The notes under the pieces: generated by a model
Databases searched by the model: none
Seen by the model: the letters and a program-made list of their open reading frames with translations, nothing else
What the model was told of the DNA's origin: nothing
Shown here: one piece after another, positions 14,101 to 64,000 of the stretch
How the letters are laid out: every line of letters begins with the position of its first letter
How positions within the stretch are numbered: position 1 is the stretch's first letter
Source: Tubiluchus corallicola
Taxonomy: Eukaryota; Animalia; Priapulida
Reading direction: 5' to 3'
Length of the DNA stretch: 64,000 nt
Assembly (NCBI GenBank): GCA_030141605.1
Contig: JAQGDQ010000001.1
Location: forward strand, 2,790,001 to 2,854,000
Position numbers and translations under genes: made by a program

Positions 14101-16561
14101 TTGCATACATAGTGCAGAAAAAGTTTCAGACCACAGTAAGCCGTTGCTGTATATCGATGTATGTAAAATATTTTAATATTCAGTTTTAAAATACTTTTTC
14201 AGTTACCTCCTGGTATAAATATCGCCAAGGATGCAAGGCAAGCTATAGGAAAGGCAGCAAGCATCTTTATTCTGTATTGCACCTCATGGTAAATTATTAT
14301 AAATCCTATGATTTCCACGCATTGCATCAGATTACCAGTAATATTAAATGGATGCATTAAAGTTAGTCATTGCTTAATCCAGATTTTGTAAATTGCCAGT
14401 TACACACAAAATGATGTCATGTATGCATTCCTATATAAATAATTGTAGTGTAGTATAATGCAATGTGTTAAAAATGGATGAGTGGCTTAATTTCAAACTC
14501 TTTTGATGCAACAACATTTGATGAGCTTGAATTTTGTAAAATGCGAAGTTTGACCTTAGAATCTTGTGCACGGCTAAATTTCAAAACCTTAGCTCTAAAG
14601 ATGGCTGTTTTAACGATTTCTTCAAAATCAGATGCTACACATTCTTTGCTTACTCATGACATTCTGAACAGTGACTTTTCTTTCATCAACAGAGCTTGTC
14701 TCTTGAAACTTTTTTATAGAATTCCTCTGTGTCATTGCTCCATTGTTATAGGTTGTTATTTTCTAGACATTTTGTGGACTGCAGTGACAGGTTTTGACTC
14801 GGCCAACCAAATAACACAGTCTACTCTTCAAAGAAGTTTAAACCTGAGGTCATCTTACTATTCTGCAAAGAATTTTGTGATTGCAGATTTGCAATAATTC
14901 AGAAATTTTATAAATTCTGGCAAAATTGACAAAAAGTGTAATTTGTATGCTGAGGAGCTAAAGTGATGTGTAACTACCAAGAGAGTTTTCAGTTCAGTTA
15001 TCCTTACCAATGTGAAACTAGCTAGCTAGTAACCTGCCTGTAGGAGAAAAGACTAAAGCATTGTTTAATAACATAGCACATGTGAATGCTCTTTGTAGTA
15101 CAATCTCAACTTTTTGTATTATCATCTATCCAATTCCACCTGAGTGTATCACTAGACTCACTATTCTATCCACAGCCTGTCAGTTACCAGGTTCAATCTG
15201 AGTTCTTTGCACCGCTATTTGATGCTAGCTTCTGTTTAATTAAGAAAGTTTTTGAAAATTACAAGAAAAATACGTACTGTATTTGTTTCAAAATTATCTG
15301 TAGGCATGTCCATGATGCCACTGCGGCGAGGTGTGTTAACAAATACTTAAAATAAAAATTGTAGCCGTTGCAATTGCATGTAATAATATATAATAAAAAC
15401 TTGCAAGCTAAGTTTTCTTCTGGCAGCCCACTGTCTTTATGATCATGCTTTTAATCTACATATGTAATACTTGTCATGAATTTTGAATTGTTTTTAGTGC
15501 TAACAACCATGCCTTACGAGGAAAAAGGAAAACATTGACAGGCCAAGATGTGCTGGATGCTTTGGAAGAAATGGAATTTGAGCATTTCATACCACAGTTG
15601 GAAAAATGCTTGACTGGTAAATCACATCAATAGAAAATTCAATTACAAAGATATTTTTATACATCATTGGTTTCTTAATAAAGTAAGCACTCTGCCCTTG
15701 TGATTTAATTATCACAGTAATGCGATGCTAATGAGAATTGTCGTTAAATAAAGCCAAACATTCCACACTGAAGTCAAAAGTGGTGCTATTATGGCGTCTC
15801 ATTGATTCTAAGTATAATTCAAATGTTTTACTTATTATAACAATTATTGTTTACATTTATGTTACCTTTTTGTATTGATATTGTACACTGATACATTGAA
15901 AACACAATTTGCATAAAATTACAGCTAAATTTGCAGCTATTGTTGCACATAGACAAAGTCAAACATATTAAGTGAGGAAATGGGTAATAAAATTTCAGCA
16001 TCTTCAAAATCAATTATCGCTAAACATATGGAAACAGTCTGCTAACAATACCCGTAATTGTATTTTGAGTTTACCTTCGATCTCCATTCTAGTAAATTTC
16101 TTCTTAAACTGTGTTTCTTGTATGTGTAGAACTTTTCAGCTTACATAACAGATCAGAAATGGTTTTGAAATTTTTCAGCTTACATAACAGATCAGAAATG
16201 GTTTTGAAATTTTTCAGCTTACAGAAGAGATCAGAAGAACAAGCGGGATTTTATGCAAAAACGGAAGTCTGCGGCACAAAACAGCAGCTCACAAAACGTG
16301 CAAACTTCAGTAGAACAAGACCTTGAGATTGAGGAAATCATTGTCGATTCTCCAGCAGATAATAACGATATGTTCGTAAGTGCAGTTGCAGACCCTTCCA
16401 TGCCACCTGCTCCAGAACTTTCCAGGTCACACATCATGAGTGCAGCACCGGGACCTTCTAGACCACGTATGAATGGCAGCATTCTTGGATCAGCACAACA
16501 ACCACTAATTATTGATCTTGAAGATGGCATGAATGGTGAAGACGAAGAAGCAGAAAGTTAG
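11136..16561 (+). CDS. POLE3: DNA polymerase epsilon subunit 3 / CHRAC17 histone-fold protein, 204 aa, 4 coding exons
   Basis: Exons 11136-11201, 14203-14288, 15498-15616, 16218-16561 (615 nt). [99 protein letters not shown]... matches the POLE3 histone fold. Confidence 0.95.
11545..13606 (-). mobile_element. hAT-like non-autonomous element with (ATTAC)n subterminal repeats, interrupted by a nested MITE
   Basis: Segments 11560-11780, 12700-12870 and 13480-13606 align collinearly, in reverse orientation, with the element at 43630-44354; the end reads TAGGGGCCGATTAC on the minus strand. Confidence 0.7.
11837..12472. mobile_element. MITE with GGCC termini and TAA target duplication (PIF/Harbinger- or Zator-like)
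   Basis: TAA|GGCCAACCACAAAAAAATTATCTCTGTCTTA ... TTAGACGGAAACAGAAATTTTTTTATTATCGGCC|TAA; imperfect TIRs with TAA on both sides. Confidence 0.7.
16133..16236 (+). repeat. 39-bp tandem triplication spanning the POLE3 last-exon acceptor
   Basis: TTTTCAG|CTTACA recurs with the AG ending at 16139, 16178 and 16217. Confidence 0.95.
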
Positions 16562-18023: not shown

Positions 18024-21000
18024 TTACTGGATGACACTCAGCTCTATGCGCTGTTCAATGGTTCCTCGACACAGAGGGCAGAGCGACAAGGGTGCTGAAC
18101 ATTGACTGCAGCAGCAAACGTGGCCGCACATCAAAAACACTACCGTACACTGAAAATAAATTGATTTCACGGTTTAATTCTGTTATTTTGGCAGACTAAA
18201 AAAACGCAGCTGTGTAATTAGCATGGATGTAAGCAAATAAATTAGAAAACAAAAAGTTTCAGTGGATTTTGAATGCACTGAATCTACTCATTGTGTACGT
18301 ATGGCAATTATAACATATTAAACAATTAAATAACAGAAAAACTTCCACTATTTATGCTCAGAAACAAAAAAGCAATTATACGAGTCATACTTATTAAGAA
18401 GAGGGTGAAAGTAGAATAAGTCCAACTTCATGTGTTCAATGAAATGCTTACTGGAATTAGTTTAATTGGAGTTCTTATGTGCAGTTTTAATTAATCATTA
18501 TATTATAGTGTGCTCGATTGGGTTGTCCTAGGAGAGCTGTTTCAGCATTCATTTTTTTATTAATCATGCATTGTTGTGCATTTGGCCATGCCCGCAGGGT
18601 TTGAAGATAGAGGAAAAGTGGTTAAAACCAGAATCCTGTTCAGATTTCATGTCACGGCTGCTAAGTTGGTGCGCTATGAGTGTGATGTAAATAATGTGTG
18701 TAGTCTTGACAAGTCTGCAGTTCTTTTGATATTTGGGCTCAATATCATGGTAGGAATGTCTTTAACAGAATTTGTAACTTTTATTACCTGATTATCTAAG
18801 CACACGACACATTCTGCATGCACCCTTGCTACCAGACTTGGTGGTTGTACGTCTGGTACACCAGGTACTGCTGGTGCTGAAGCACTAACTTCTTCCTCTG
18901 GAGGAGCCGATGGTGGCCTTGACTCCCCACTAGTTCCACTTAGAGGACTTTCAGGTCCAGTTGGACTGACTGCAAAAAGCTTGTCAGCTTTCTGTTTTGC
19001 AGTCTCCTCTTCTTTGCGACGTTCATCAGCCACACGAAGAATAGTTTTGCGTATTCCAACTTTGCCAATGCCAATCTAGACAATGTATATGTGCCAGACA
19101 CCAATTTGTATTCGTGTGTATCAAGTAATAATACAATAGGATCAAAAGCAGAAATAAAGTAAAATGTACTGCACTCACACAAGCACATATTAATAAACAT
19201 AAGCTCACTCAGGGTCATCTTCGGGTTTCAGCTGGCTTTCTGCAATATAGCATTAGTGGCTTTATATTAAGAAATGGTTAAGAATATTCCTAAAAGAGTG
19301 GAATGTCTGTATCACACTTGAAGCGCCAATGCAGTCTTACAGTTTTGCAATCGACTATCCGACCTTGCATGAAAGTACTGAAGCTGTAAGGCTGGTGCCT
19401 CAGCCTGTTAGCATCATCCGCTTGACAAATTAGAGAACTGTACTATCAATCTGGTCAATCTCTTCAATCTTTATTAGTTTCTAAATGCCAACATATTTTA
19501 CACTAGACATTCCTAGATGTTGAACAATTTATAAACCCAGTTTTTGGATCTGCCACGAAGTTAAAAGCTATCACAGACCACAGTTTTTATTATAGAAGGT
19601 TGGAATTTTGCATGAAGATACAATGGGCTGTTCTATTAAGCAAAACTACCCCGGGGATCATCCACATATAACGAGTTTTTTGTCGATTTCGAAGACCTAC
19701 CTTCCTTGCATTACAATGTAGCTTTTTGTGCATTTCATTCTTCCTCCTCCCAAGGAAGGCAACGACATCACTTACAGTGGGCAGTTTCCTATGAAACTAT
19801 AGGCAGTTAACACTTAACAGTGTGTAAATTCCCAATTAGCGTATATCTGGGAAAAGCCATGGTGTGTTCATTTTTAGCCGTGGTGGCTGTCAGATAACGA
19901 TCGATATCAGCACTAAATCACCTACCTAACTTGCTTTATAATGGTGTTATCATGTCTCCTGCTTCCTACCTACCCTAAACTTGATATCATTATATATGGA
20001 TGGTCCCAAAGGGGTCTTGGAGGGTTACAAATTACCACACACTACGTTTTTTGTAAGGAATTCTATACAGAGACCCATTAGGCTATATAACAGTTGCAAA
20101 ATTGCAATAAGGCCGCAACTATGATGCCTAATGGGTAAGGTGAGCGACTTTTGAGATAAATCAGTATATTCAAGTTTGAATACCAATTGGTGAATTTTTA
20201 TACTCCACAAAATTATATTTGATGATCGACAAAAGTAGCAAACAGTATCTCAGTGCCTGCAAAACACATTAGTGCTTCCAGTCTTATCCCTCCCCCCTCC
20301 CCCAATTTCAGATATGTAGATTTCATTTTCAGGAAAGTTATTTTCTGGCTAAATATAGTTTCACTTATTTCATAAGTAGTATTAAAATATACTTCCTATC
20401 ACAAGAAAGTATCACAAGAACTGCATTTTTCTACACCTTTAATCAAATTTTCCTTTTCTAACTACCTCGTGTCTCTATTAGACTCAACCAATTACAATTA
20501 AGACTTACTGTAATGCCAGGTTTTTACAGTAATATATCAAAGGGTTCTAAAACTGCAAAACAAAGCACGGTATCCAAACTATCTATAACATACTAATTTT
20601 TTTAAATTTTTAATACTAGCAACTATGCCCGGCCTGCAATCATATTTTAGTGAAGTATATAAAAACTAAGCAATTTGTAAGCAGACTGCACACGCTACAA
20701 TAATTACCATCATACATGAATGTTTTAGATATTAATGGTCAGTTAGTGAACAATAAATGAACAAACCTCACTCAAATCCTGATCAGTTAGTTGATACATA
20801 GTCTCGATTGAAATCCTGTGGCGAGCAAACATAGGTATGTACTCAGTTGCCTGTGCTTCCTCTAGTATATACAAAACTGCCCATTCCAAATGAGTCTCCT
20901 AATTTAAATATTAGGGAATCACTTGTTATTCTCTCTACACATTCACAATTTCATGGGATACAGCTTAAATATTATAATGATACACCAGTAGGCCTAGCCA

Positions 21001-37799: not shown

Positions 37800-46512
<8,713 letters not shown>

Positions 46513-47925
46513 TACTAAATATTTATTAATACTTTGCTCACACTGTCCAGGCTAATTAAGTAGTTAATCAGTTAGCTGGTAACTCAGTAAGCTGAATTAT
46601 TTAGTCAGTTTGTTAGTGTACAGAGACTACAGTACTATTGTTTAATTCTTATGTTGACAATAAATTTTATGTATATGATGAATCATGTAATAAATTTTGC
46701 AATTATTATTACTATGTATGTCATACAGACTGAATCACTATTTCATTTTTTGGCTATAAGTTTTTATCATGCATCGCCTGCTCTGTAATATTTTCTAATC
46801 ATGCACAAGTGTCTTGAAACTTGTCTGTCTCACTTTAATTATTTTGTGAATCACTTGTAACTTGTTTTTGTTTCTAAGAATTATGACATTTTAAATAAGA
46901 TGCTCAGTTGTTGAATTGATGATCGATGACATAAATTGACTTGACCAGATTTTTTTATTGAACTGATATTAAAATTATTAGAATACAGAAATATATCACG
47001 CTGTCTATATAGTTTGGAAGGGACTTGATAGAAAAAAGGTTGAACTTCAAAATTTTTTGTGTTCTAATTATGCAGCAAGTCTAACTGTTTATGAGTTCTA
47101 AGGAATATAGATTATTTTTTGTACTATTGTTTGTGAAACGAAACCAAATTCGTTATAAATATTGTACTGTACATATTGTTGTTTGTCTCTCTCTGTGATT
47201 TGTGTACATAGTGCATAGAATTTTCTGTACATATTTTAATATAATTACTATTATTTAGTTATTAATATTAGTATGTACACATTATACAGCAATAATGTTT
47301 TATCTGTATACTACATATAGCATAATGTCTTGTATTTTTGTTGTTTTAGTGAGTTTATCAAATTTCAATGTAAAATTTATTAGTGACATAGTGATGACCT
47401 TGGTGAAAAACACATTTGAGCACAATACCTTATTTTTCTAATTATTAGTTGCTTTGCAGCTTATTCAAATTGCAATTTACTTGGCTAGCAAATTTACCTG
47501 ATGCAGTTGGGAATTTTGCACCCTGGAAATGGCTTCAGGCCTCTTTTGAGCCTATCGATGGAGTTCATGTTAAGTCCGTAAAACAAGCAACATAAAAATG
47601 ACACGCAGGTTAGCTAATCAGCAGTCAAAGTATCACACGAAGTTGGCTCAACCAGCTCAGTTACTTATGGTCAAAGCTATTGATTTCTTAATTACAAAAG
47701 AAAGTCATTTTGTATAATAAAAGTTTTCAATTTATTTTAAAGAGTAATTTTTGTGAGCTTAACACAAGCTCATTAATAGAGCAAAAAGTTGCAACTTTTA
47801 CTGTGATTGATTGGATGCAGTGAATTAGCATCAGTCAGTTCAATAATAATTTTAGTAAATGGGGATCCCGCCATTGTAACAGCATGTACAGAATAGTAAG
47901 TTTTCTCACCAAGTAACGCAGACGT

Positions 47926-48706: not shown

Positions 48707-49465
48707 TGTTGGGAGCCGAGTGGACCACTGCGCCAAGTAGACCACTTGATGCGCTAAAAGTAGTGTCCTACATGGGCAGCCCAAGTAGGACACTAGCGAT
48801 TTTTGTCGAGAATCGGTAATTTTGCCAAATTTTTGAAAATTCTGTGAAAGTTTCTTCATTTTATTATTTACAGAAATAATTGCAAATTTAAAAATAAGAC
48901 AGATGCTGCTAAGCCTTCACAACACCAAAAAGTAATTTTTAACATTTAAGAAAAGCAAGGATAATTAGTTTAACACTAAGAAAAGCAAGGATAACAAGTG
49001 TAACATGTAGGGCACTGTCCTACATGGCTCGCTAGCCCATGTAGGACACATAGATTGCTAGAACGTTTACTTATAAGAAAACAATTATTTGCCCAAGAGG
49101 TAGTGAAACGGATCACCTGTTTGTGAAGTGAGACAAAATCAAAAATGATATACCCGGTACCTTAAACAAATTTTGTATTCGCAAAAAAGTGGTTTTTTTC
49201 ACTTCAACAACATTAATATCGAAACCAAATTTAATATTGTCCGTTCTACCAGCTCAGAATAAAATTCTTTTATTTTATTAGATGTATAATAAATTATTCA
49301 ACGTGTACTAACGTTTTTAATTATTATTATTACATAAACAAGCACAACGGACGGTGTCAGTACACTTAACGACTCAATTCGCGGACCTGTCTCTAGTGTC
49401 CTACTTGGGCAGCCCAAGTAGACCAATTGGTCTACTTGGCGCAGTGGTCCACTCGGCTCCCAACA
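48707..49465 (+). mobile_element. TIR DNA transposon, internally deleted copy (759 bp) with a 5-bp target duplication
   Basis: Perfect 38-bp TIRs TGTTGGGAGCCGAGTGGACCACTGCGCCAAGTAGACCA; flanked by GCTTT on both sides (48702-48706 and 49466-49470); the body matches 33856-33969 and 34940-35470. Confidence 0.93.
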
Positions 49466-49865: not shown

Positions 49866-49873
49866 TCACGTGA
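49866..49873. promoter_or_regulatory. CLEAR/E-box motif TCACGTGA just upstream of the IER3IP1 start
   Basis: Palindromic TCACGTGA 23 nt before the ATG; a full GTCACGTGAC also occurs at 51450-51459. Confidence 0.5.
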
Positions 49874-49896
49874 GGTTGGAGTCACAGTCAGATGAC

Positions 49897-51822
49897 ATGG
49901 CGTTTACTTTGTATTCTCTTTTTGAAGCTGTTTTACTTTGTATAAATGGTGTAGCAGTATTAAACGAGGAAAGATTTTTGGCAAAAAGTGAGTGTAACTA
50001 ATCCGTTCTTTCATTTTCTAAAGATTTTCATTGGTAATTTTGCGTGATGTTAAATAGTTACCTATGGAAGGATCAAGAATTTTATTATAGGCAGTGGCTA
50101 GAGGTACGGACCCGTATTCGTAGCTATTGCAACAAATACGGAACCGTGCTTTTTGTGACATTTACAAAACATACGGATTTTAACCATTTTTACGACATAT
50201 GGCGTTTGACCATTTGCCCTGCACATCATTGAAAAGTACATGCCCACTTCATGAAAATGGTGATGTGCCATTATACAGCCTGTAGCCGTACCGATTTTCT
50301 TCGGTACCATTTCTCTTCGTGATATAATAGTTACACTAAATATTAGTTAGTCTCCTTTTATTGTCTTACAGATTGTTAGCTTTGATATTGTGCTGTGTGT
50401 TGCATAGCCTACAAATTAATAGTTTGTTTAATTTATTTTGCTTAATGTTACAAAAAACTTTAGTCTATTTTGATGTGTAGTAGACCAGCTACCAAGAGTT
50501 TAAGCCTTAAAGTGTTATGAATTTCTTAGTGTGTTGTAATGTGCTGACCTACTAGTCCGTATTTTTTTATAGAGTCCTGTGAATGTGATAACCTACTAAA
50601 CTGTATTTTTCCTTAGTTTGGGTTGTGATTTATTGACTTTTTGAACATAGCGAAATTTTTTAGTATTTATGTGATATACAGTAAGTGCAGTTTATAAAAG
50701 CACCTGTTGCCAAATAATTTATGTTGCGAATATTATAGCATGCCTGTATTACTTGCTTGATTTATTATTTTGTTTGTCATTGTAAACATTTTAAAGCATC
50801 TTTATGTGAGCCAGGTCCCATATTAATTAGTTATTTTATTATTTTGTTTATCAAAGCTGTACTGCAATCATTGACTGCCATATTCCAATTCAATTTTTGT
50901 AGTGCTTTATACGTCATTTCTATTAAAATGTAAAAAGGCCATTTTACAAATTTGCATTTAACTGAAGGCTGCAGTAAGTATAATTACGTTTGATTGTCAC
51001 AATAATCCACTTTATATTGAGTTAAAACATCAAGTTTGCAGCATTCAATCTGTCTAATAAACTTCTTTATGATCTGTAATGAATTGCCTATTTTTACATT
51101 ATTAATTCTGCAGTTCTAAACTTTATTGAACACAAAATCACCCTGTAAATAAATCTAGTTTGGTAATTTAACTAATTTATACAACATTCCCTCAAATTAA
51201 TAAGATTGAGATTAATTAAACTAAAATGATCTGTTCATAATGATTCAAAATAATACAAAAATGATATATTTACTTAATATCTAGTTTTTAGTATTAAGCA
51301 AATCTACTATTGACCAATATATCTGACAAAATATACCACTGTCACTGTGAAAAACTACTTTGTCATTACCAAGGTAAAGAAGCCTGTTAACGTCTATCAA
51401 CTAACTCGCTTGCCCATGGTAAAAACAGATATGCACAGGTGAGTGACATGTCACGTGACCCACAAGATATTTGATGAAATTCCCTACAAAAGTATTTTAT
51501 ATTATGCAAACAGCAACAACTTAAATGTGTGTCATGTTAATTGTGTCATGTCAAATGTATATGCAGTGTAAATGTCATGTAAAATTTAATGTACTTTTGT
51601 AGTATTGTTTTATAAAAATATTTTAATATCGTGCTTGTAAACATGTCCATTAATTGTAAATAATTAGACCTTAGTTTTGCTCTTTAGTTTTTTTAGTCTA
51701 GATACACTTGTCTTGAACAGTGTTGTTATTTTAACATTTCGCTGAGGCTTACTCAATTTTGTTATAATGAGTGAACATTTTAATGAAAAATAAAGAATAG
51801 ATATAGATATATTAATTCTTTA

Positions 51823-51861
<39 letters not shown>

Positions 51862-54800
51862 TGGTTTGAAGTGTGAAGGGCATGAAGTGGTTGAATGATG
51901 TACTATGTACATCGTGCTGTGTGAGTTGTCGTTGAAGGTTTACAAGCAAAATTGGGGTCTGGCTAGCAATTTATTATTGATTCGCGATTATATTTCCTAG
52001 CTTCACATTAAGAAACAGTTTTCAACAATACAGCACACATACCAAGCCTAGTTAATTTGTTGCCCACATTTTTTGCGGATACAAGGATATTCAATTTCAC
52101 TCAATCCGTGGATTTTACAGATGCATTTATTTACAATTGTGGATTTTGCGGTTGCTAATAAACAAGAAAGTGATATCCGCCCATCTCTGACGGCGATCCG
52201 TAGAGTTTCTCGTCAATATCTTTTGTGGTGCAGCGATCCGTATTTTCTCGTTTTAATATCTTTCGCGGTACGGATCGATCCGTACTTTCTAGTGAATGCT
52301 TTCGAGATACGGATCCGTATTTTTAGTTGCTGCAGTCCGGATACGGATCCGTACCTTTAGTCACTGCCTTTATTATAATTTATTATTTTACATTTATACA
52401 CTTTATATTTATAGTTAACCTACTAGTCAAGCTAGTGTGCGATCTACATGCACAATTTTTGACCTGTCATTTGAACGTGCAGTATTTCATTAAAACTCAC
52501 AACACTGCGAAACTCACGCATTCTCAGGTTGTTTTGTCCACTTATGTCTGTGGCGGGGCTACGGGAGGGGAATGCACTGAAAAAGTTGATTCTGTCGGAA
52601 CAGTCGGAACTGACATAATTTAATTATCCACGAAGACCATTGCTTATAGTGCTTATTGCGGAAACTAAAAAAAGTTTCAGGTAAAGGAAGGTGATAACAT
52701 ATAATTAATAATTCCTTAATTGTTATTAATTTAATAGCTCTGAGATATTCACGTAGTGGCCTTTCATTCCCTGCTTTCAAGTTTCTGTGCAGTACATGTT
52801 TCGTGTTACATGACTTTGTGCAATACACGTTCATACAATCTTTGCTGCTTTGATTTGATTTTTACATTTTCCCATACATTGGTCTTCGTTTTGTTTGGCT
52901 TGTTTCAGTATTAATGTATCACACATGTACTGTTGTAAGTTGCAACTTGGAGCAGTTTAAAATAATTTTTATTGCCATGCTGTTTGATTTTATTCCATCA
53001 TTAGTTTACTAAACGTATTCAAAATAAAAAGAAAATATGCGTATATGTTTCATCAGTACATGTATTAACGAAATTAAAATATTATATTTGATTTTTTGAC
53101 GTTGCCAGTGTCTTAGTTCTGCTTTAGGCAGTACTGCCACAAGAGATAGCCAACCTTAAAGTGTGTGGACTATTTAGGTATGCATGCCTTATTGTGTGGT
53201 TTCAATTTCTATCTGCCGTGTCTTGAATATTTTAAAATGAAAATTAAACAAAAACTTGAAAATTGTCTGGTGAGTTAATTAAGATATTTGTTGACAATTC
53301 CCAGCATGAACTGAATATGTTTCAAACTCACACAATGCTGCACTATATCCAAAAAAATGTTAGGCATACTAAAATCTAAAAGCTTTACTTCCTTGCTACA
53401 GATGGAAGTCAAAATTCAAGTAAAAGACTAATTTTTTTGCATAATACTGTGAATTATCAGTGTACTCAGAATTAGTTGCCGCACTCCTAGTTTTCAAACA
53501 TCTAAAATCTTCCTACGTAAGAATGTTGCTGCTTAAGGTGTTGTAGCTTAAGTTGGGGGGGGGACAAACTTAGCCTCAATCTCTAGATATGCTACTGACT
53601 TATGTATGGTAACAGGTTTTCACTTAACAAGTTTTGTTGACTTCTTTTGAACTATATGTTGAATTCGCTTCTATTTTTCCCTTTTGTGTTAGTAATATAC
53701 TAATATTAATCTTGTGCACAGTACAGCTTAATAAAGAGGTATAAAGACTTGGTGGCAAACAAATCATACAGTCATCTACTCTAGCCACCCAATGTAATTT
53801 TAATTATGTACTGTTTACCAACTTGCACAAACCATACAGTCATCTAGTCTAGCCATCCCTAATGTAATTTTAATTATTTACACTTTACCAACTTGTGAGT
53901 TTGTATAAATTTGTTGTGAGTGTATTTCAAGGCTGGAATCTGTGTGATAAATTTGGTGTATATCCGTGTGCAAAAATTTGCATTGGCGTGAGTGCGGTCA
54001 TATGCACCGTCGATATTTGTCATTTCAGTTTTTATTATGACTTACATTATGTCAGTTAAATATCAACATACATTTAGTTAAGAATTTTATAGTGACTTCA
54101 TGAAAAACTGGATGAATTACTGAATATGGACATCTGTGGAAAGCGGCATTACATTGCATGGCACTTTATTATCACATAGACATTAGTGTATGGCAGAACA
54201 TGTTATCCAGCCAGGCATTTCTCAATGACTTTGCATTTCAGAAAGTTGTTTGGGAATGAGATGCCGACATGTTTCTTACATTAATTTAGAGCCGTGATGC
54301 CAGCATTTCCTCTTTGCTTTTAATATAGAGTGTGCAATGTAAAACTCAATGTAAAACTCAATTCTAGATGCTATGGATAAGTAATTGTAAATCAATCTAC
54401 CCACTTTTGCTTGTCGGTTGTTGGACAGGTGTCAAATTCTTTAAGTTCCTAAATTAGATACAATAGATTCTGCATAATTGCCAGCTGTGTAACATGGATT
54501 ACTGATCATTTGGATAAACTCAGTGGAACACAAAAAAACTTAAAAGCACTCAATTAACAATTCTATAACCTTATGTCTGTGGCTGCTATTATATTATTAC
54601 AGCTAATACAACTTTTGGGCATTCTCGGTACATTAACGTTCAGAATGCAGGTCTTATTTAAACAATGGCAGTCGTAAATGAGAATGACAGAGCTTCATGG
54701 GCTACCTATTAACTGCCCATCATCAGCAACTGATGCCGTTAATGGCCTGACATCATTGACAATGAACATTAGTGATATTAACAGCCCATTGTCATTAGTA

Positions 54801-57800
54801 ACAATTGACTTCTACTAAAAAATAGAAAAGTGACAAAAAATAAGCATTCTAATGCCATTAATTATTACAATAACAAATGTGCATTAAATAAATTTATTGC
54901 GTTTTAAATTAAGATAGTTTTAATAACAGTGTAATGCTAGTTCTATTTAGAAGTATCGTAAACATTGCGTCCCTCGGTCTTTCATTTGTAACCCTTTGAG
55001 CTAACCTCAGTCATTAATGACACCATCGGCCTGCAATATAAAAAACCTCGGGCCACAAATTTTCAAAATGACCGATAGTATTATTGTTATACATTATTTT
55101 GCAACTTTGTATAAATTTTTAGAGCACTAACTGCAGAACCCATTGTATTTACTCTGCTCATTTCAAGTATTCATAAAGAATTTTGTGAACACTGTGTTAT
55201 CTAATAGTGATCAGTACTAACATTTCAAAAGAATATAATTACAAATTACTGTACACAAAACACTAACTATATTGTATACTCCTATTGAGGAGTTTGTCTT
55301 GTACTAGGGCTATAATAGGTTTGAGCTTGTGCAGCTGTGACTACTTGATTGCACAGGTGAGGTGTTTGGCTGACTCTCCAGTTGTCCTTATCTTATTTAA
55401 TAGTTAAATCCTCGCTAACCAGTTATTAAAAATTAGTTCTGATTAGCTTACATTCAGTTCTATGGAAACACAGTTTTATATTTTCAAATAAACCGCCATT
55501 GTTCAGAGCAGATCAGTTACTACACTTGGCAAAGTGAACAAATTACAAACTTTTCAGTTATATGAACTTACACAGATTTTGGTACATCTACAAAATATCT
55601 TCTAAAATTGTTTAGATAAGTAAATGAAAAATCAAACCTTACATAAATTATTAGGCCTGCAACATAATTTGCAAAATAGACTATTTTCTGTCAAGCAGTT
55701 CATGTTCCAGTTGTGTTTAGTTATTGTAGATCTAGGTTATGCTTGTAAAGGACATGTTCTACTTTAGGTTTATTTACTATGAATAATTGTCATTAACATG
55801 CACAGTGTAAGTATGCAGGTTGTAATAGGTAAATAGGGCACGACGTATTTATAGCTTGCCCTATAGCATTCCTATTTGTATATCAGCATTTGTGGTAGAC
55901 ATTCTAATAATAATGGGTTCTAGAAAAGCAGAACTCTTGTACAACTTTATATGTAGGACTTAAGTCCACTTTTTAGGGACACAAACTCAGGTGTGAAGTT
56001 GAACTCCAACTTGATAGTCCAGAAGTTGACTAGGCCTATAAGTATAAACTTAAATTGCTGGTTATATTACCAAGCATGTAGTAAAGTCAAATGAGTAAAA
56101 ACTGAAGCAGAACATCATTATCAATAAAATTTGTCACCGTAAATATTAAATGCGGTAAGCAGACTTCAGACATGCCAGTATTTTTGAACTCTACAATGAA
56201 ATTTTTCTTTAATGGTTTATAGAATTGTTTTGTAGCTTACACAAATGATTTAAAGGTGGTCCTTGAGGCAAATCCTCATTTTATGATGGAATCAACAAAA
56301 ATTCTGCCTTAATCGCTAATGGAAGAAATTAATGATGATATGGGTCGGATTATGACATTTTGGGGCCCTAGACTAATGAAATTATGGGTCCCCTCAGACT
56401 GAGCAACGCTTTAATTTGTCCGCATATGTCTTAGATATTTTTACTGGTGATATATTTTAGCGACATTTTAATAGCTTGAAGTAAACTTATTGCAAATTCT
56501 TTAAATAAACTAGAGTAACTATCTTTTGTTAGCCAACAAAAATACTGTTTAAAAAATACTACCATGTTGCTCTTTATTGCAAAGTAAAATTAGCTCATAC
56601 TTCAACACAACCGTGGAGGAAAAATTGTTGTTGAATGCTAGGCTGAAGCCTATTCTAGCTTATAGGATAATTTTGCCCTGATGATGACCAGTTTCCTTGT
56701 TTTCAATTCACAATAATTTACGTCAGAAGGCCGAAAATCTGTATTAGTTTTTACACATTATTTTGTTTTCATTTTTGTTACTTTCAATTCTGAGTTCCAG
56801 TTCTAAGGATTCTTTTAGTGCTCACATGGAATTCCTAGTTGACTAATGCAAATCCAACAATGTATGTAGCTGTACTACCTGTACAAAAAAGTGCACATTG
56901 ACCTTCGTTCCATATACGAATATCACATCTTAGACATTTACACACAAGCAAAATTTTACCTAGGTAATAATGAGGTCATCAGATAATAGCAAGGTTAAAC
57001 AAAGTTTATCCTCAAGTGCCCATTCTTGTCAGTTTAGAGAATTTGTTCATAAATATGATATCTTGTTCGATTGATATGTGTCATACTCATGTTGTCTTTT
57101 GTTAGTTGAAATAATATATATTTTTTAGTATTATTGCTACAGCTTATATTTGTGAATGTTTTGTGTCATGGTGTTTGCTAGTTTAGATATCATTATTGCC
57201 TAGTTTCTTTCATTTAATAGTTTGTAAGTCTTCTAAGCAAGCATTTAAGGCTACTAGTAATACAATTGATTAGTGCACAGATTTCGTAACATATAGCATG
57301 TGCATATTTTCTTTTTACTATGCCGTCTGCATGTTACAGCTTTAAACCTTTTCTATTGTTTGCTGTCGTACGTTAATTTTTAGATATACCTATATTTCAT
57401 TTTATTATTTTGTTTCTTTCAGTTGGTTGGGGAGTTAACAACACTCAAGGATTTGGTGAAGAGCCTGGCATGAAAGCACAGCTTATTAACTTAATTCGTT
57501 CTGTACGCACTGTTATGAGAAGTGAGTACAAAGTACTAAATGCGTCTCAAATTAGTGCCAGTCCATTTATAAACAATAATAGTAATAACAAACAATAACA
57601 CTAATGCAAGCTGCTGAAATTAGTAGCCAGAATATATCTTTACTAGCATTATTGCAACAAAGTCTTTGTAGTGGTTTCGTTTTTCGGCTTTTGTTTTTTT
57701 AACAGATTTTCCACACTATGTACAAGCTTAAGTCCAGTACGAACATATGCATATAATTGTAATAGACTAATACTTACCTTTCTTAAATGCCTCGACCTTC

Positions 57801-58359
57801 TGTTATTTTGCTTAACATATTAAGTTGTCAGCAGTTTATGTTAGTGTTGTTGTAAAATTTCTGTGCATAATGATTGCTCAACTATTATTTTAATGACTGT
57901 TATTATAGGGCCTATATATGCTATATATTTCTTTCCTTTTAATGCAATTTGTTTAATAAAAACATAATTACTTGTACAGGAAATTTTTTAAATACACTTT
58001 TTCTTATATATATTTTTACAAACTTTATGGCAATTCAACTAAGTTTTGCTTATATCTGTTTTTGCTACTTAATTAAATTTTGTCTCTGCTAATTTTGAAT
58101 TAGTTAAACTGCTCAGTAACAAATAGTTTGCTAATCACTTTGCAGATAACGAGATGTGTTATGTGCATTTTGAGATACCCATAGTGAGTAATAAAGTAAA
58201 TTATGCATAAATACAAAGCATGAACTATGTTTAGTGCACTGACAAGAACAACGGAACTTACTTTGTGTTAAAAAAGTTTAAAGCTTTTTTGTTTTTCTTG
58301 CAGTTCCTCTGATATTCTTCAACATCCTTACGATTTTCTTTGAGATTGTTCTGGGATGA
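49897..58359 (+). CDS. IER3IP1: Immediate early response 3-interacting protein 1 (Yos1 family), 81 aa, 3 coding exons
   Basis: Exons 49897-49987, 57423-57521, 58304-58359 (246 nt, GT-AG, phase 1/1): MAFTLYSLFEAVLLCINGVAVLNEERFLAKIGWGVNNTQGFGEEPGMKAQLINLIRSVRTVMRIPLIFFNILTIFFEIVLG*, which is recognisably IER3IP1/Yos1. Confidence 0.96.
51829..51858. repeat. (TA)n microsatellite
   Basis: Directly visible. Confidence 0.85.
52075..52355. repeat. Cluster of CGGAT/ATCCG(TA) motifs, likely the subterminal region of a hAT-type element
   Basis: More than ten GATCCG/CGGAT units, e.g. GATACGGATCCGTA twice; termini not identified. Confidence 0.5.
53757..53895. repeat. Tandem duplication of about 70 bp
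   Basis: CATACAGTCATCTA.TCTAGCCA...AATGTAATTTTAATTAT...TTTACCAACTTG occurs twice. Confidence 0.9.
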
Positions 58360-58499
58360 AGCAGTCACATCAGAACAACAGCGTCTTGTGCATTGTGACA
58401 CAGCATTACAGCTGACCGTAAAACTATAATGTTTATGTGAAGCACTTATATAGTGTGAAGTTTTTTTTGTGATCAGTGATTAGAAACTGTATATTTAAA

Positions 58500-60119
58500 A
58501 TGTCTGAACGAAGTGAACGTGAACCTCTTTTATCTAGAAATCGCTTAACTGGGGATTTAGATAGTCCTCCCAGGAGAATATCTCGTGTGTCTTCGAGTAG
58601 ATCCCTTGAGGCTGAAATTGAAATAGAAGGCTGCGGTGGCTCCATCTGTTGCCATCCTGGAAAAGTTGTTCATCGATTTCTCATTCTTATTCTTATGTGC
58701 TTTTTGGGATTTGGCAGTTATTTTTGTTATGACAATCCTGCTGCCCTTCAAGACCAAATGAAAAAGAACTTACGCATTACCACAAGTCAATTCATGTCAT
58801 TGTATTCATGGTACTCTTGGCCAAACGTTGTGCTATGCTTTTTTGGTGGTTACCTTCTTGATGGATTTTTTGGAATTCGTCTGGGAACTGTCATATTTGC
58901 TTTATTTGTACTAGTAGGACAGTTGGTCTTTGCAACAGGGGCACTCATTGATGAATTTTGGTTGATGCAAGCTGGACGATTCATTTTTGGTATTGGCGGG
59001 GAGTCCTTAGCTGTTGCTCAAAATACTTATGCAGTAAACTGGTTCAAGGGCAAAGAACTGAACATGGTATTTGGACTTCAGCTAAGTTTTGCAAGAGTTG
59101 GTAGTACAGTTAACATGAACCTAATGGGCCCTGTATATGAATGGGCAGGTGAGTGGTTTGATGTTGACGGATACAGGCAGCTGGGAATCTCTTTATATCT
59201 AGCTGGTTTCACATGTGTACTTTCACTGGCGTGTGCGCTTGGACTAGCGTTTTTTGATATAAGGGCTGCAAAGCTGCTACGAAAAGATGAAAATAAAACT
59301 GGCGAAGTAATTCACATCACTGATGTGAAAGATTTTGGCTGTTCAATGTGGCTTTTGTGCGTTATCTGTGTGGCCTACTATGTGGCTATCTTTCCATTCA
59401 TTGGTTTGGGTGTTGTGTTTTTTGAGAGTAAATTCGATTTTACGAACTCCAATGCTAAAGCAGTCAATAGTTTGGTGTACATAATCTCAGCTATAGCATC
59501 TCCCCTACTTGGTTTTATGGTAGACAGAATGGGGCGAAATGTAACGTGGGTGATAGTAGCAATAATAACAACTATGGTCTGTCACGGATTACTTGCTTTC
59601 ACTTTTCTGAATCCATATGTAGCAATGAGCATCTTGGGTATATCATATTCACTTCTTGCTAGTGCTCTTTGGCCAACAGTTGCATATGTTGTAGCTGAGC
59701 ATCAATTAGGTACTGCCTACGGCATCATGCAAGCCATACAGAACTTGGGATTGGCGATTATATCATTACTTTGTGGTATTATAGTTGATAAGAAAGGCTA
59801 CCTAATATTAGAAGTGTTTTTCCTGGCTTGCCTTTCCATAGCACTAATTGCAGCTGTAGCTCTGTACCTCATAGATCAGGCAAAAGAACTGAATCTGAAT
59901 CTTTCTGCCACTGTACGCTTGCGCATGGAGCAAGCAATAGAGGAAGAAGAAAGAGAGAAAGTGGAACGACTAGGAGACATTTCAGCTGCTCCTGATCTTC
60001 TTCGACCTCGTAGCGACTTTTATTTCCGTAATCGATATTTGTCAAGAATAGGCGCAAAACTTCCAGAGCATTACAACGTATACACATCAGCACTTGTACG
60101 AAGAAGCTTACTTCAGTAA
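58500..60119 (+). CDS. MFSD1: Lysosomal MFS (dipeptide) transporter MFSD1, intronless, 539 aa from the first ATG
   Basis: Uninterrupted 12-TM-type ORF with MFSD1 signatures (LMCFLGFGSYFCYDNPAALQ, LYSWYSWPNVVLCFFGG, GRFIFGIGGESLAVAQNTYAVNWFKGKELNMVFGLQLSFARVGST, EHQLGTAYGIMQAIQNLGLA) and an N-terminal dileucine sorting motif EREPLL. Confidence 0.97.
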   Translation: MSERSEREPLLSRNRLTGDLDSPPRRISRVSSSRSLEAEIEIEGCGGSICCHPGKVVHRFLILILMCFLGFGSYFCYDNPAALQDQMKKNLRITTSQFMSLYSWYSWPNVVLCFFGGYLLDGFFGIRLGTVIFALFVLVGQLVFATGALIDEFWLMQAGRFIFGIGGESLAVAQNTYAVNWFKGKELNMVFGLQLSFARVGSTVNMNLMGPVYEWAGEWFDVDGYRQLGISLYLAGFTCVLSLACALGLAFFDIRAAKLLRKDENKTGEVIHITDVKDFGCSMWLLCVICVAYYVAIFPFIGLGVVFFESKFDFTNSNAKAVNSLVYIISAIASPLLGFMVDRMGRNVTWVIVAIITTMVCHGLLAFTFLNPYVAMSILGISYSLLASALWPTVAYVVAEHQLGTAYGIMQAIQNLGLAIISLLCGIIVDKKGYLILEVFFLACLSIALIAAVALYLIDQAKELNLNLSATVRLRMEQAIEEEEREKVERLGDISAAPDLLRPRSDFYFRNRYLSRIGAKLPEHYNVYTSALVRRSLLQ

Positions 60120-62486: not shown

Positions 62487-62594
62487 ATGGCGGCGACTGC
62501 TAGTGTTAAGGTTAATTCGTCTGATGTTTCCAAACAAAATTTCGACATAAGAACTAAATCTATTGAGCAAACGCTGGTGCCATTAGTCTCACAG
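62487..62594 (+). CDS. CTNNAL1: Alpha-catulin (vinculin/alpha-catenin family), first coding exon; gene continues beyond the window
   Basis: MAATASVKVNSSDVSKQNFDIRTKSIEQTLVPLVSQ followed by donor CAG|GTAAGA; the I(R/K)T.S(I/V)EQTL.PLVSQ block is characteristic of alpha-catulin. An in-frame ATG also lies at 62475. Confidence 0.82.
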
Positions 62595-64000
62595 GTAAGA
62601 TGAGGTTTAAACGAAAAATCGTCAATTGTTACCTTTTCCCTTTAATGTAATATTAAATGCACCTTATTATGCCATTTAGTTTATTTCTGACAGTTTTGAT
62701 ATTAAATAGTGTATATTTAAATAGGCATAGGCCTAAATTTATTATTATCCAGAGACATGAAATTTGTTTATAAAATACTTAAAAACATAGTTAAAGCAAG
62801 CTTGGTTAAACATTGATTGAAGGACTATGTAACCATGGTAATTTATTTTTTGGTATTGCATTTTATTTTTATCCATTTACTTTTGATTTAGTACAAATAT
62901 TACAATACATTTGCGGAAATGACAGTGCATTACAGTGCTATGAGCGTCCAGAAAAAGTTAACTTATAATCAACAGTTGTAAGTTAATTTCTTCAAGAACC
63001 ATCTAGACAAGTATTTTGTAGCTGTGAAATACAGCTGGACATACTGCAACTGCAAGGAACGCCTTGTCAGACAGCATTAAGTTTTTTTACCAGAACTGCA
63101 ACGAAGTCGATGTTCAAAGAAATGTTTTTTATGTGAATCCTCAAACAGGCAATAGCATGATTTTTATGTCAGAGTTTTCTCCGCTTTTAGGTTAGGGTTC
63201 CCTCACAAAGACACCAATTTAAAGATATTGCTATTCAGTACATGGCTATTTAAATTTAATTGATAGGCTATGTCATATTGCTTTACTACTACTTTGCTAC
63301 AGTTAAAAATTTAGATTTCATGTGACAGACTAGAATCTCAGGCAAGGATAATATCAACACTTGACAACCATGTGTCCATTTTTCAACCTGTTGAACAGTG
63401 GCCCTGCATACCTTCTAATTTCCAAAAAATAATTACGATGTAAAAAGCACTTGTAAATATTTTTAATAACTGACTGTTATTGCTAATATTTATTAACATT
63501 TTATACTGGTATTATATTATAATGTTGGTAGGCTGTAGGTTTTGCAAAACCATTACACTATGCAAGTGCGCAACTGCATGCATTCACGGTATTTTCCAAC
63601 ATGAAAACACACTCGTTACAATTTCAGACAGGGCTCTTGAAGGCGTGGCTTAATCGGAAATTGTCCAATCACAATTAGCACCAGCATTGTTTTTCCCAGG
63701 TCTATCTGCGAAAGAAATGCTGCTGTGTATTCAACTTGTGCTTTCTAGGGCTACATATCTACGTGCATCATATGGTTTGTTTGAGTCACTGTCTAATACA
63801 TACTGTAGTTGAATGTGTTAATTTCAGTTTTCAGCATGTCAGTATTTTTATTACTTTAGTATAGTTATCCGATCATAGGACTTTAGTGTAGTGTTAATGT
63901 AGTAGTTGGGCTTCAGTATGCGAGAAGTGCATGTGTGGTAAGCATTTTACATCGTTTCTAAATTAAAATTTTTAATTAGCTACGATGTAAGGGTTGGTTT

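What the first reader, a model, noticed from the sequence alone, without database searches (positions are those of the whole stretch)
49897..60119. IER3IP1 and an intronless MFSD1 appear to form one bicistronic or operon-like transcription unit
Seen: the IER3IP1 stop (58357-58359) lies 140 nt before the MFSD1 ATG (58500) on the same strand. The spacer has no AATAAA/ATTAAA and little room for both a terminator and a promoter, so MFSD1 sits in what should be the IER3IP1 3'UTR. Both ORFs are intact and well conserved. Established: IER3IP1/Yos1 acts in ER-to-Golgi cargo export; MFSD1 is a lysosomal dipeptide transporter; in vertebrates they are separate genes. Inference: a two-protein eukaryotic message linking an ER-export factor with a lysosomal membrane cargo. 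The IER3IP1 AUG has strong context (GACATGG) and several AUGs precede MFSD1, so plain leaky scanning is unlikely; reinitiation, internal entry, alternative splicing or spliced-leader trans-splicing would be needed. I do not know of this pairing being described.
Basis: partly seen in the sequence, partly recalled or inferred. Interest (0 to 1): 0.9.

Follow-up and report, generated by a model that had tools for sequence, protein, structure and literature searches.

The report
IER3IP1-MFSD1 pair, likely one mRNA
In this priapulid-like marine worm an intron-free gene for a lysosomal transporter (MFSD1) starts 140 bases after the stop of a small ER-export gene (IER3IP1); the two appear to be neighbours in a distantly related priapulid too and likely share one two-protein messenger RNA, a known but uncommon arrangement in animals that is untested here for lack of RNA data.

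Summary
A three-exon IER3IP1/Yos1 gene (81 aa) stops at 58359, and an intact single-exon MFSD1 (539 aa) starts at 58500 on the same strand. The closest named relative is Priapulus caudatus, where the two proteins share a 228,971-nt scaffold and have consecutive RefSeq accessions. MFSD1 identity is 73%, as for lizard versus fish, so the pairing is likely old. It is not adjacent in 15 of 15 outgroup animals checked. The layout matches the described retroposition-derived bicistronic mRNAs (human STREMI-SLC35A4): small spliced upstream ORF, intronless transporter behind it. Co-transcription is not shown, because no RNA data could be examined. Nothing supports a functional link between the proteins, or a fusion. 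Verdict: likely a new member of a known kind; the pair was not found in print. Odds: bicistronic 0.5, own promoter 0.28, trans-spliced operon 0.1.

The parts
49897..49987 (+). IER3IP1/Yos1 coding exon 1 (ATG in strong context, -3 G, +4 G)
   Evidence: Pfam Yos1 E=2e-9
57423..57521 (+). IER3IP1 exon 2
   Evidence: Pfam Yos1 E=2.2e-6; tblastn
58304..58359 (+). IER3IP1 exon 3, coding part, TGA at 58357-58359
   Evidence: tblastn E=0.006; alignment
58360..58499 (+). 140-nt spacer: none of 12 poly(A) hexamers, two ATGs (58429, 58435)
58500..60119 (+). MFSD1, single coding exon, 539 aa, N-terminal dileucine-type motif EREPLL
   Evidence: motif type from PMC6819133
49892..49945 (+). 17-codon uORF starting 5 nt before the IER3IP1 ATG (weak context, -3 C) and ending inside exon 1; candidate route past the IER3IP1 start (inferred)
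58356..58415 (+). 19-codon ORF whose ATG overlaps the IER3IP1 stop (ATGA); in the MFSD1 frame but closed 84 nt before the MFSD1 ATG
58447..58477 (+). TATA-like TATATAG (58447) and TCAGT (58473-58477; A at 58475), 28 nt apart: candidate MFSD1 core promoter (rival reading). AG at 58475-58476 after a T8 tract is also a mediocre candidate 3' splice site
   Evidence: consensus motifs recalled
49866..49873 (.). TCACGTGA E-box (CLEAR-like, consensus recalled) shortly before the IER3IP1 ATG; candidate lysosomal-regulon site on a shared promoter (inferred)
   Evidence: MFSD1 is a TFEB target in mammals per PMC6819133

Best explanation
An intact, intron-free MFSD1 gene lies 140 bases behind the stop of the three-exon IER3IP1 gene, and it likely arrived as a reverse-transcribed copy early in priapulid history and is likely transcribed as the tail of IER3IP1's last exon, giving one two-protein mRNA. 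Shown: both ORFs, the spacing, the lack of introns, and proxies for the same neighbourhood in Priapulus caudatus and for none in 15 outgroups. Inferred: (1) retroposition into the IER3IP1 3' UTR, the copy then serving as the working MFSD1; (2) transcription from the IER3IP1 promoter through MFSD1, with the 3' end after 60119; (3) stability of that RNA, because no exon junction follows the IER3IP1 stop; (4) abundant IER3IP1 and low MFSD1 translation. MFSD1 would be reached by ribosomes that resume scanning after the short 17-codon uORF at 49892 or after the IER3IP1 stop, and would probably rise under the integrated stress response as for SLC35A4. The pairing is likely a borrowed promoter, not a functional partnership.
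For: Gap of 140 nt against 3384 and 2367 nt on either side. No hexamer of 12 between the IER3IP1 stop and 58622; first AATAAA at 59292, inside the MFSD1 ORF; the neighbouring Sp-like gene has AATAAA about 150 nt after its stop. P. caudatus XP_014669907.1 (MFSD1) and XP_014669908.1 (IER3IP1) are on one 228,971-nt scaffold, at 73% MFSD1 identity. Unlinked or far apart in 15 of 15 outgroups. Mouse Mfsd1 has exons. Same anatomy as STREMI-SLC35A4, where 50% of downstream ORFs are intronless and several upstream ATGs do not prevent stress-induced translation. 140 nt lies within the -34 to 319 nt range of exclusively polycistronic fly loci. TCACGTGA before the IER3IP1 ATG, 2 in the window against 0.4 expected.
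Against: No RNA evidence was seen. Hexamer absence is common by chance (75% of windows for the two main signals, 30% for all 12), and MFSD1's own 3' region has no ATTAAA until 61585 and no AATAAA until 62032. Eight ATGs precede MFSD1, most with a purine at -3. A TATA-like/TCAGT pair in the spacer offers an ATG-free 25-nt leader. In Drosophila only 45 of 159 dicistronic loci are exclusively dicistronic. Strand, order, distance and intron state in P. caudatus were not seen. No poly(A) remnant or convincing target-site duplication was found, and no genome was available to look for a parental copy. The second TCACGTGA (51451) lies between 43-nt inverted repeats and may be transposon-borne.
Confidence: 0.5

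Rival explanations
1. MFSD1 has its own compact promoter in the spacer (TATA-like at 58447, start near 58475) or in IER3IP1 intron 2 and is translated from a one-protein mRNA. IER3IP1 transcripts either end just before it or overlap it as a silent 3' UTR.
For: TATATAG and TCAGT 28 nt apart; such a pair occurs 6 times on both strands of the window (0.7% per 140 nt) and in 10 of 5000 dinucleotide shuffles of the spacer, 27 of 5000 with a looser initiator. It removes all eight upstream ATGs. Most fly dicistronic loci (114 of 159) have a monocistronic alternative for at least one gene.
Against: The motifs were chosen after seeing the sequence. The pair fails the stricter TCA[GT]T[CT] test, and 28 nt is at the short end of the usual spacing (recalled). 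TCAGT alone occurs 0.22 times per 140 nt. Core-promoter grammar is untested in priapulids. There is no CpG or GC rise over the spacer. TATA promoters are atypical of housekeeping genes (recalled).
Confidence: 0.28
2. The pair is an operon. A common pre-mRNA is resolved by spliced-leader trans-splicing onto the AG at 58475-58476, giving a capped one-protein MFSD1 mRNA.
For: Intercistronic distance of about 100-150 nt and a T8 tract plus CAG 24 nt before the ATG. It would remove the upstream ATGs.
Against: The acceptor is mediocre: 26% of 399 intronic AGs score as high, on a crude eight-site matrix that itself separates real sites poorly. No poly(A) hexamer for the upstream mRNA, unlike nematode SL2 operons (recalled). 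The neighbours are kilobases apart. No Rfam match in the window. No listing pointing to trans-splicing in priapulids (listings only).
Confidence: 0.1
3. Alternative cis-splicing from the shared promoter. A donor upstream of the IER3IP1 ATG (GTGAGG at 49870) or the exon 1 or exon 2 donor joins the AG at 58475-58476, giving a one-protein MFSD1 mRNA or an in-frame IER3IP1-MFSD1 fusion.
For: Of 11 spacer AGs only this one is in frame with the phase-1 donors, and the MFSD1 frame is open from 58473.
Against: Weak acceptor. The four closest relatives are 539-542 aa with no Yos1 part, in a search covering 296-944 aa. No Yos1 hit exceeds 313 aa among the best 150 of 695, and the four longest-type hits scanned carry no MFS domain. 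RefSeq keeps two proteins in P. caudatus.
Confidence: 0.08
4. MFSD1 here is a silent or recent retrocopy, or the adjacency is an assembly accident.
For: It is intronless; no whole genome was available to exclude an intron-containing copy.
Against: Full-length intact ORF, 95% identical to an unnamed relative and in a 100%-supported five-protein clade with P. caudatus; the same neighbourhood by proxy in an independent assembly; no N in the window.
Confidence: 0.04

Closest known systems
Human STREMI (SLC35A4-MP)-SLC35A4 bicistronic mRNA, 'gene symbiosis' after retroposition (PMC13303939; abstract, sections 7, 11, 13 and passages read, supplements term-searched)
   Same: Small conserved membrane protein upstream (103 aa against 81 aa here); intronless membrane transporter downstream whose homologues have introns; both genes older than their linkage; extra upstream ATGs; no known interdependence of the two proteins.
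   Different: Different genes and phylum, so independent origin. There the bicistronic form is shown by long reads, ribosome profiling and reporters; here it is only inferred.
Drosophila dicistronic loci (PMC4528330; section 6 and passages read)
   Same: Ecdysozoan, unrelated genes on one strand, spacer within the -34 to 319 nt range of exclusively polycistronic loci, small ORFs over-represented.
   Different: The recalled fly gene ids CG32069, CG8602 and CG12194, and Yos1, were not found in 12 supplementary files; file 1 could not be searched and may be the list of polycistronic genes, so this is not an exclusion.
Other human bicistronic pairs MIURF-MIEF1, PYURF-PIGY, ASDURF-ASNSD1 (named in PMC13303939, section 7)
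   Same: Two conserved proteins from one mRNA.
   Different: IER3IP1 is an ordinary, independently expressed gene in other animals and has a strong start context.
Spliced-leader operons of Caenorhabditis (recalled)
   Same: Short same-strand intergenic gap.
   Different: No poly(A) hexamer in the gap, no strong acceptor, no clustering of the neighbours, no leader evidence.
Mouse MFSD1 (PDB 8r8q; PMC6819133, passages read)
   Same: Orthologue: E=5.9e-182 over residues 38-478, N-terminal dileucine-type motif.
   Different: The mouse gene has exons; in the vertebrates checked (Ascaphus, Nothobranchius) the two genes are on contigs of different length.

Membership tests
Retroposition-derived bicistronic mRNA (STREMI-SLC35A4 type) | Two full-length, conserved, non-overlapping ORFs close together on one strand | tested here: met
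   140-nt gap
Retroposition-derived bicistronic mRNA (STREMI-SLC35A4 type) | Downstream CDS intronless while homologues have introns | tested here: met
   single ORF; mouse Mfsd1 exon 3; intron state in P. caudatus not seen
Retroposition-derived bicistronic mRNA (STREMI-SLC35A4 type) | Both genes older than their linkage; linkage conserved within a clade | tested here: met
   By proxy only (contig lengths, accession order): linked in P. caudatus, not adjacent in 15 of 15 outgroups
Retroposition-derived bicistronic mRNA (STREMI-SLC35A4 type) | Most full-length transcripts carry both ORFs | not testable with these tools
Retroposition-derived bicistronic mRNA (STREMI-SLC35A4 type) | Both ORFs translated from that mRNA; upstream ORF controls the downstream one | not testable with these tools
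   needs ribosome profiling or reporters; ATG map only
Retroposition-derived bicistronic mRNA (STREMI-SLC35A4 type) | Direct marks of retroposition (poly(A) remnant, target-site duplication) | tested here: inconclusive
   none found; not expected to survive in an old insertion
Spliced-leader operon | 3'-end signal for the upstream mRNA inside the gap (recalled feature of SL2 operons) | tested here: not met
   none of 12 hexamers
Spliced-leader operon | Unpaired 3' splice site just before the downstream ATG | tested here: inconclusive
   AG 58475-58476, matched by 26% of intronic AGs on a crude matrix
Spliced-leader operon | Non-genomic leader on the downstream mRNA; SL RNA genes | not testable with these tools
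   no reads, no genome; no Rfam match in this window
Read-through or fusion protein gene | One reading frame across both genes | tested here: not met
   IER3IP1 frame differs from the MFSD1 frame and closes again after 12 codons; no fused relative seen
MFSD1 lysosomal dipeptide transporter | MFS domain, orthology to mouse MFSD1, N-terminal dileucine motif | tested here: met
   Pfam MFS_1 E=1.3e-41; 8r8q; EREPLL against mouse EDRALL; transport not tested
IER3IP1/Yos1 | About 80 aa, Pfam Yos1, two hydrophobic ends | tested here: met
   62 of 81 residues identical to P. caudatus

The most novel reading that the evidence does not exclude
IER3IP1-MFSD1 is a true operon conserved across priapulids and resolved by spliced-leader trans-splicing at 58477, which would be evidence of trans-splicing and operons in priapulids, a slowly evolving ecdysozoan lineage for which my searches found none.
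Probability: 0.1. Interest if true: 0.75.

Novelty: new member of a known kind. Interest (0 to 1): 0.4.

Why it matters
If confirmed, it is an independent, apparently ancient case of a retroposed transporter living in the 3' UTR of a small host gene, outside vertebrates and insects. That would support the 'gene symbiosis' route to animal bicistronic mRNAs as a general one. It would also be a natural test of how ribosomes reach a second ORF behind a strong start, an 81-codon ORF and eight ATGs, and of whether an apparently sole lysosomal transporter gene can be supplied that way. If the gap is resolved by trans-splicing, it would extend operons to priapulids. If MFSD1 has its own promoter, it is an ordinary tightly packed retrogene.

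Tried and rejected
No RNA runs or reads were examined and no whole genome is held, so transcript structure, a parental MFSD1 copy and SL RNA genes remain open. The metagenome scan gave 1 locus from 104 candidate stretches (L001, 63% identity); it has only about 30 nt before its MFSD1 ATG and is uninformative. That absence may reflect gene calling and is not used as evidence. Glandiceps has both genes on one 24.8-Mb contig but 736 accessions apart: rejected as adjacency. Stop-codon read-through: rejected, different frame. Restart at the overlapping ATGA: gives only 19 codons. Plain leaky scanning: unlikely with eight ATGs. IRES: the spacer folds at -25.3 kcal/mol with no shuffle control; no claim made. 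Fusion: see rival 3. GTCACGTGAC at 51450 (0.012 expected) is discounted, as it lies between inverted repeats. No complex prediction was run, since binding is not claimed. Literature, listings only unless stated: IER3IP1+MFSD1 gave 5 papers, none on this pairing by title or abstract start; bicistronic+MFSD1, 6 of 7 listed; priapul+operon, 19 of 22 listed; priapul+spliced leader, 3; dicistronic+retrogene, 4; a five-term search listed 40 of 2261, none containing IER3IP1; Priapulus caudatus+trans-splicing+genome+intron, 0. Most subscription journals are not covered.
Full report
Observation. IER3IP1/Yos1 has three coding exons (49897-49987, 57423-57521, 58304-58359) with GT-AG introns and encodes 81 aa. 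Exons 1 and 2 hit Pfam Yos1, and the Priapulus caudatus protein hits all three exons. MFSD1 is one ORF of 539 aa at 58500-60119, with Pfam MFS_1, a match to mouse MFSD1 in the PDB (E=5.9e-182) and an N-terminal EREPLL resembling the mouse lysosomal sorting motif EDRALL. The spacer is 140 nt. The upstream zinc-finger gene (Sp-like by my recall of the sequence; C2H2 fingers) stops 3384 nt before IER3IP1, and the next apparent start is 2367 nt after MFSD1. Only this one gap is tight.

Organism and conservation. The best named MFSD1 hit is P. caudatus at 73%. In a quick maximum-likelihood tree of 35 proteins, the window's MFSD1, P. caudatus and three unnamed records form one clade with SH-aLRT 100; the careful tree did not finish. 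Lizard versus fish MFSD1 is also 73% in that alignment, so the split is likely deep, though rates may differ. In P. caudatus, MFSD1 is XP_014669907.1 and IER3IP1 is XP_014669908.1, both on a 228,971-nt contig. Consecutive accessions on a small scaffold very likely mean neighbouring genes (inference from how RefSeq numbers genes; recalled). They do not give strand, gap or exon count. For 15 outgroup species with both proteins in my lists (3 hemichordates, 4 echinoderms, 6 spiders, 2 vertebrates), 14 have the two on contigs of different length, and Glandiceps has them on one chromosome-size contig 736 accessions apart. Different assembly versions could account for some length differences. The pairing thus looks priapulid-specific among the animals checked; kinorhynchs, loriciferans, nematodes and insects were not compared.

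Is there one transcript? No RNA data were examined, so this is inferred. For it: none of 12 poly(A) hexamers lies between the IER3IP1 stop and 58622, the first AATAAA is inside the MFSD1 ORF at 59292, and the upstream gene has AATAAA about 150 nt after its stop. The IER3IP1 stop is in the last exon and MFSD1 has no intron, so no exon junction would mark such an RNA for decay (established knowledge, recalled). A TCACGTGA box lies just before the IER3IP1 ATG, and MFSD1 is a TFEB target in mammals (PMC6819133, passage). This is weak, since other factors bind E-boxes and the second copy in intron 1 may sit in a transposon. Against it: 894 of 1191 non-coding 140-nt windows lack AATAAA/ATTAAA and 353 of 1191 lack all 12 variants, and MFSD1's own 3' region lacks both main signals for about 1.5 kb. 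The spacer also holds TATATAG 28 nt before the A of TCAGT, 25 nt upstream of the MFSD1 ATG. Such a pair arose in 10 of 5000 shuffles, but I chose the motifs after seeing the sequence and the stricter initiator fails. This keeps an independent MFSD1 promoter as a serious rival.

How would MFSD1 be translated? Read-through is excluded, since the frames differ. The ATG overlapping the IER3IP1 stop opens only 19 codons. An ATG at 49892, 5 nt before the IER3IP1 start and in weak context, opens a 17-codon ORF ending inside exon 1. Ribosomes taking it would skip the IER3IP1 start and could resume scanning, reaching further when initiator tRNA is scarce. This ATF4-like route is my preferred mechanism and is inference only. 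An AG at 58475-58476 behind a T8 tract is the only one of 11 spacer AGs in frame with the IER3IP1 donors, but 26% of 399 intronic AGs score as well on a crude matrix. No fused protein was seen among MFSD1 relatives of 296-944 aa (best 120 of 1274) or Yos1 relatives (best 150 of 695, longest 313 aa).

Comparison with what is known. PMC13303939 (abstract, sections 7, 11, 13, passages; supplements term-searched) describes 14 human bicistronic transcripts. Half of the downstream ORFs are intronless, and the authors propose retroposition into a host locus followed by read-through. Its main case, a 103-aa membrane protein ahead of the intronless transporter SLC35A4, has extra upstream ATGs, low basal and stress-induced downstream translation, and no direct functional interdependence of the two proteins. 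The present locus meets the genomic criteria of that class, while the transcript and translation criteria could not be tested. It therefore works like that class by anatomy, and membership is probable, not proven. PMC4528330 (section 6, passages) counts 159 dicistronic pairs in Drosophila, only 45 exclusively so, with gaps of -34 to 319 nt for loci producing only polycistronic transcripts. Its supplementary file 1 could not be searched. Earlier unchecked notes of this scan report three similar pairs in other animal genomes; I did not test them, but they suggest the pattern recurs, which lowers the surprise.

Functional link. PMC11335259 (passages) reports raised lysosomal activity and mis-secreted lysosomal enzymes in IER3IP1 knockout cells, but its main text has no mention of MFSD or GLMP; its supplementary proteomics tables were not searched and may bear on this. 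I find no support for MFSD1 being an IER3IP1 cargo and treat the pairing as a borrowed promoter.

Verdict. A real, apparently old and lineage-specific gene pair, not found in print in searches (listings only, open-access library). Most likely a retroposition-derived bicistronic locus (0.5); own promoter 0.28; trans-spliced operon 0.1; alternative splicing or fusion 0.08; silent copy or artefact 0.04. New member of a known kind, interest 0.4.

Noticed in passing
window 37800-46512 (+): Multi-exon gene with a long Gln-rich exon (39332-40393) and C2H2 zinc-finger exons (Pfam); Sp1/3/4-like by recall. AATAAA at 46659 and 46689.
   Followed up: partly
window 62487-62595 (+): Apparent first coding exon of the next gene; resembles the alpha-catulin N-terminus from recall, but Pfam and PDB gave no significant hit.
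   Followed up: partly
window 48707-49465: About 760-nt element with 42-nt, 98% complementary inverted ends, MITE-like, upstream of IER3IP1.
   Followed up: no
window 50078-52380: 43-nt inverted repeats 2.2 kb apart in IER3IP1 intron 1, enclosing a CAG/GTGAGT donor-like site at 51439 and GTCACGTGAC at 51450; possibly a DNA transposon.
   Followed up: partly
window 18674-19075 (-) and 16208-16561 (+): Exon-like ORFs of other genes; the first ends in a CxxC start of a RING-like motif (by eye); no Pfam hit.
   Followed up: no
proteins P0263 and P0372 (unnamed records): Yos1 joined to a RING/TRIM-like region (313 aa) and to Yae1_N (239 aa); these may be merged gene calls, hinting that Yos1 sits close to other genes in other lineages too.
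   Followed up: no
protein P0005 (unnamed record): Long-branch MFSD1 sister to P0003 within the priapulid-like clade; possibly a diverged duplicate.
   Followed up: no
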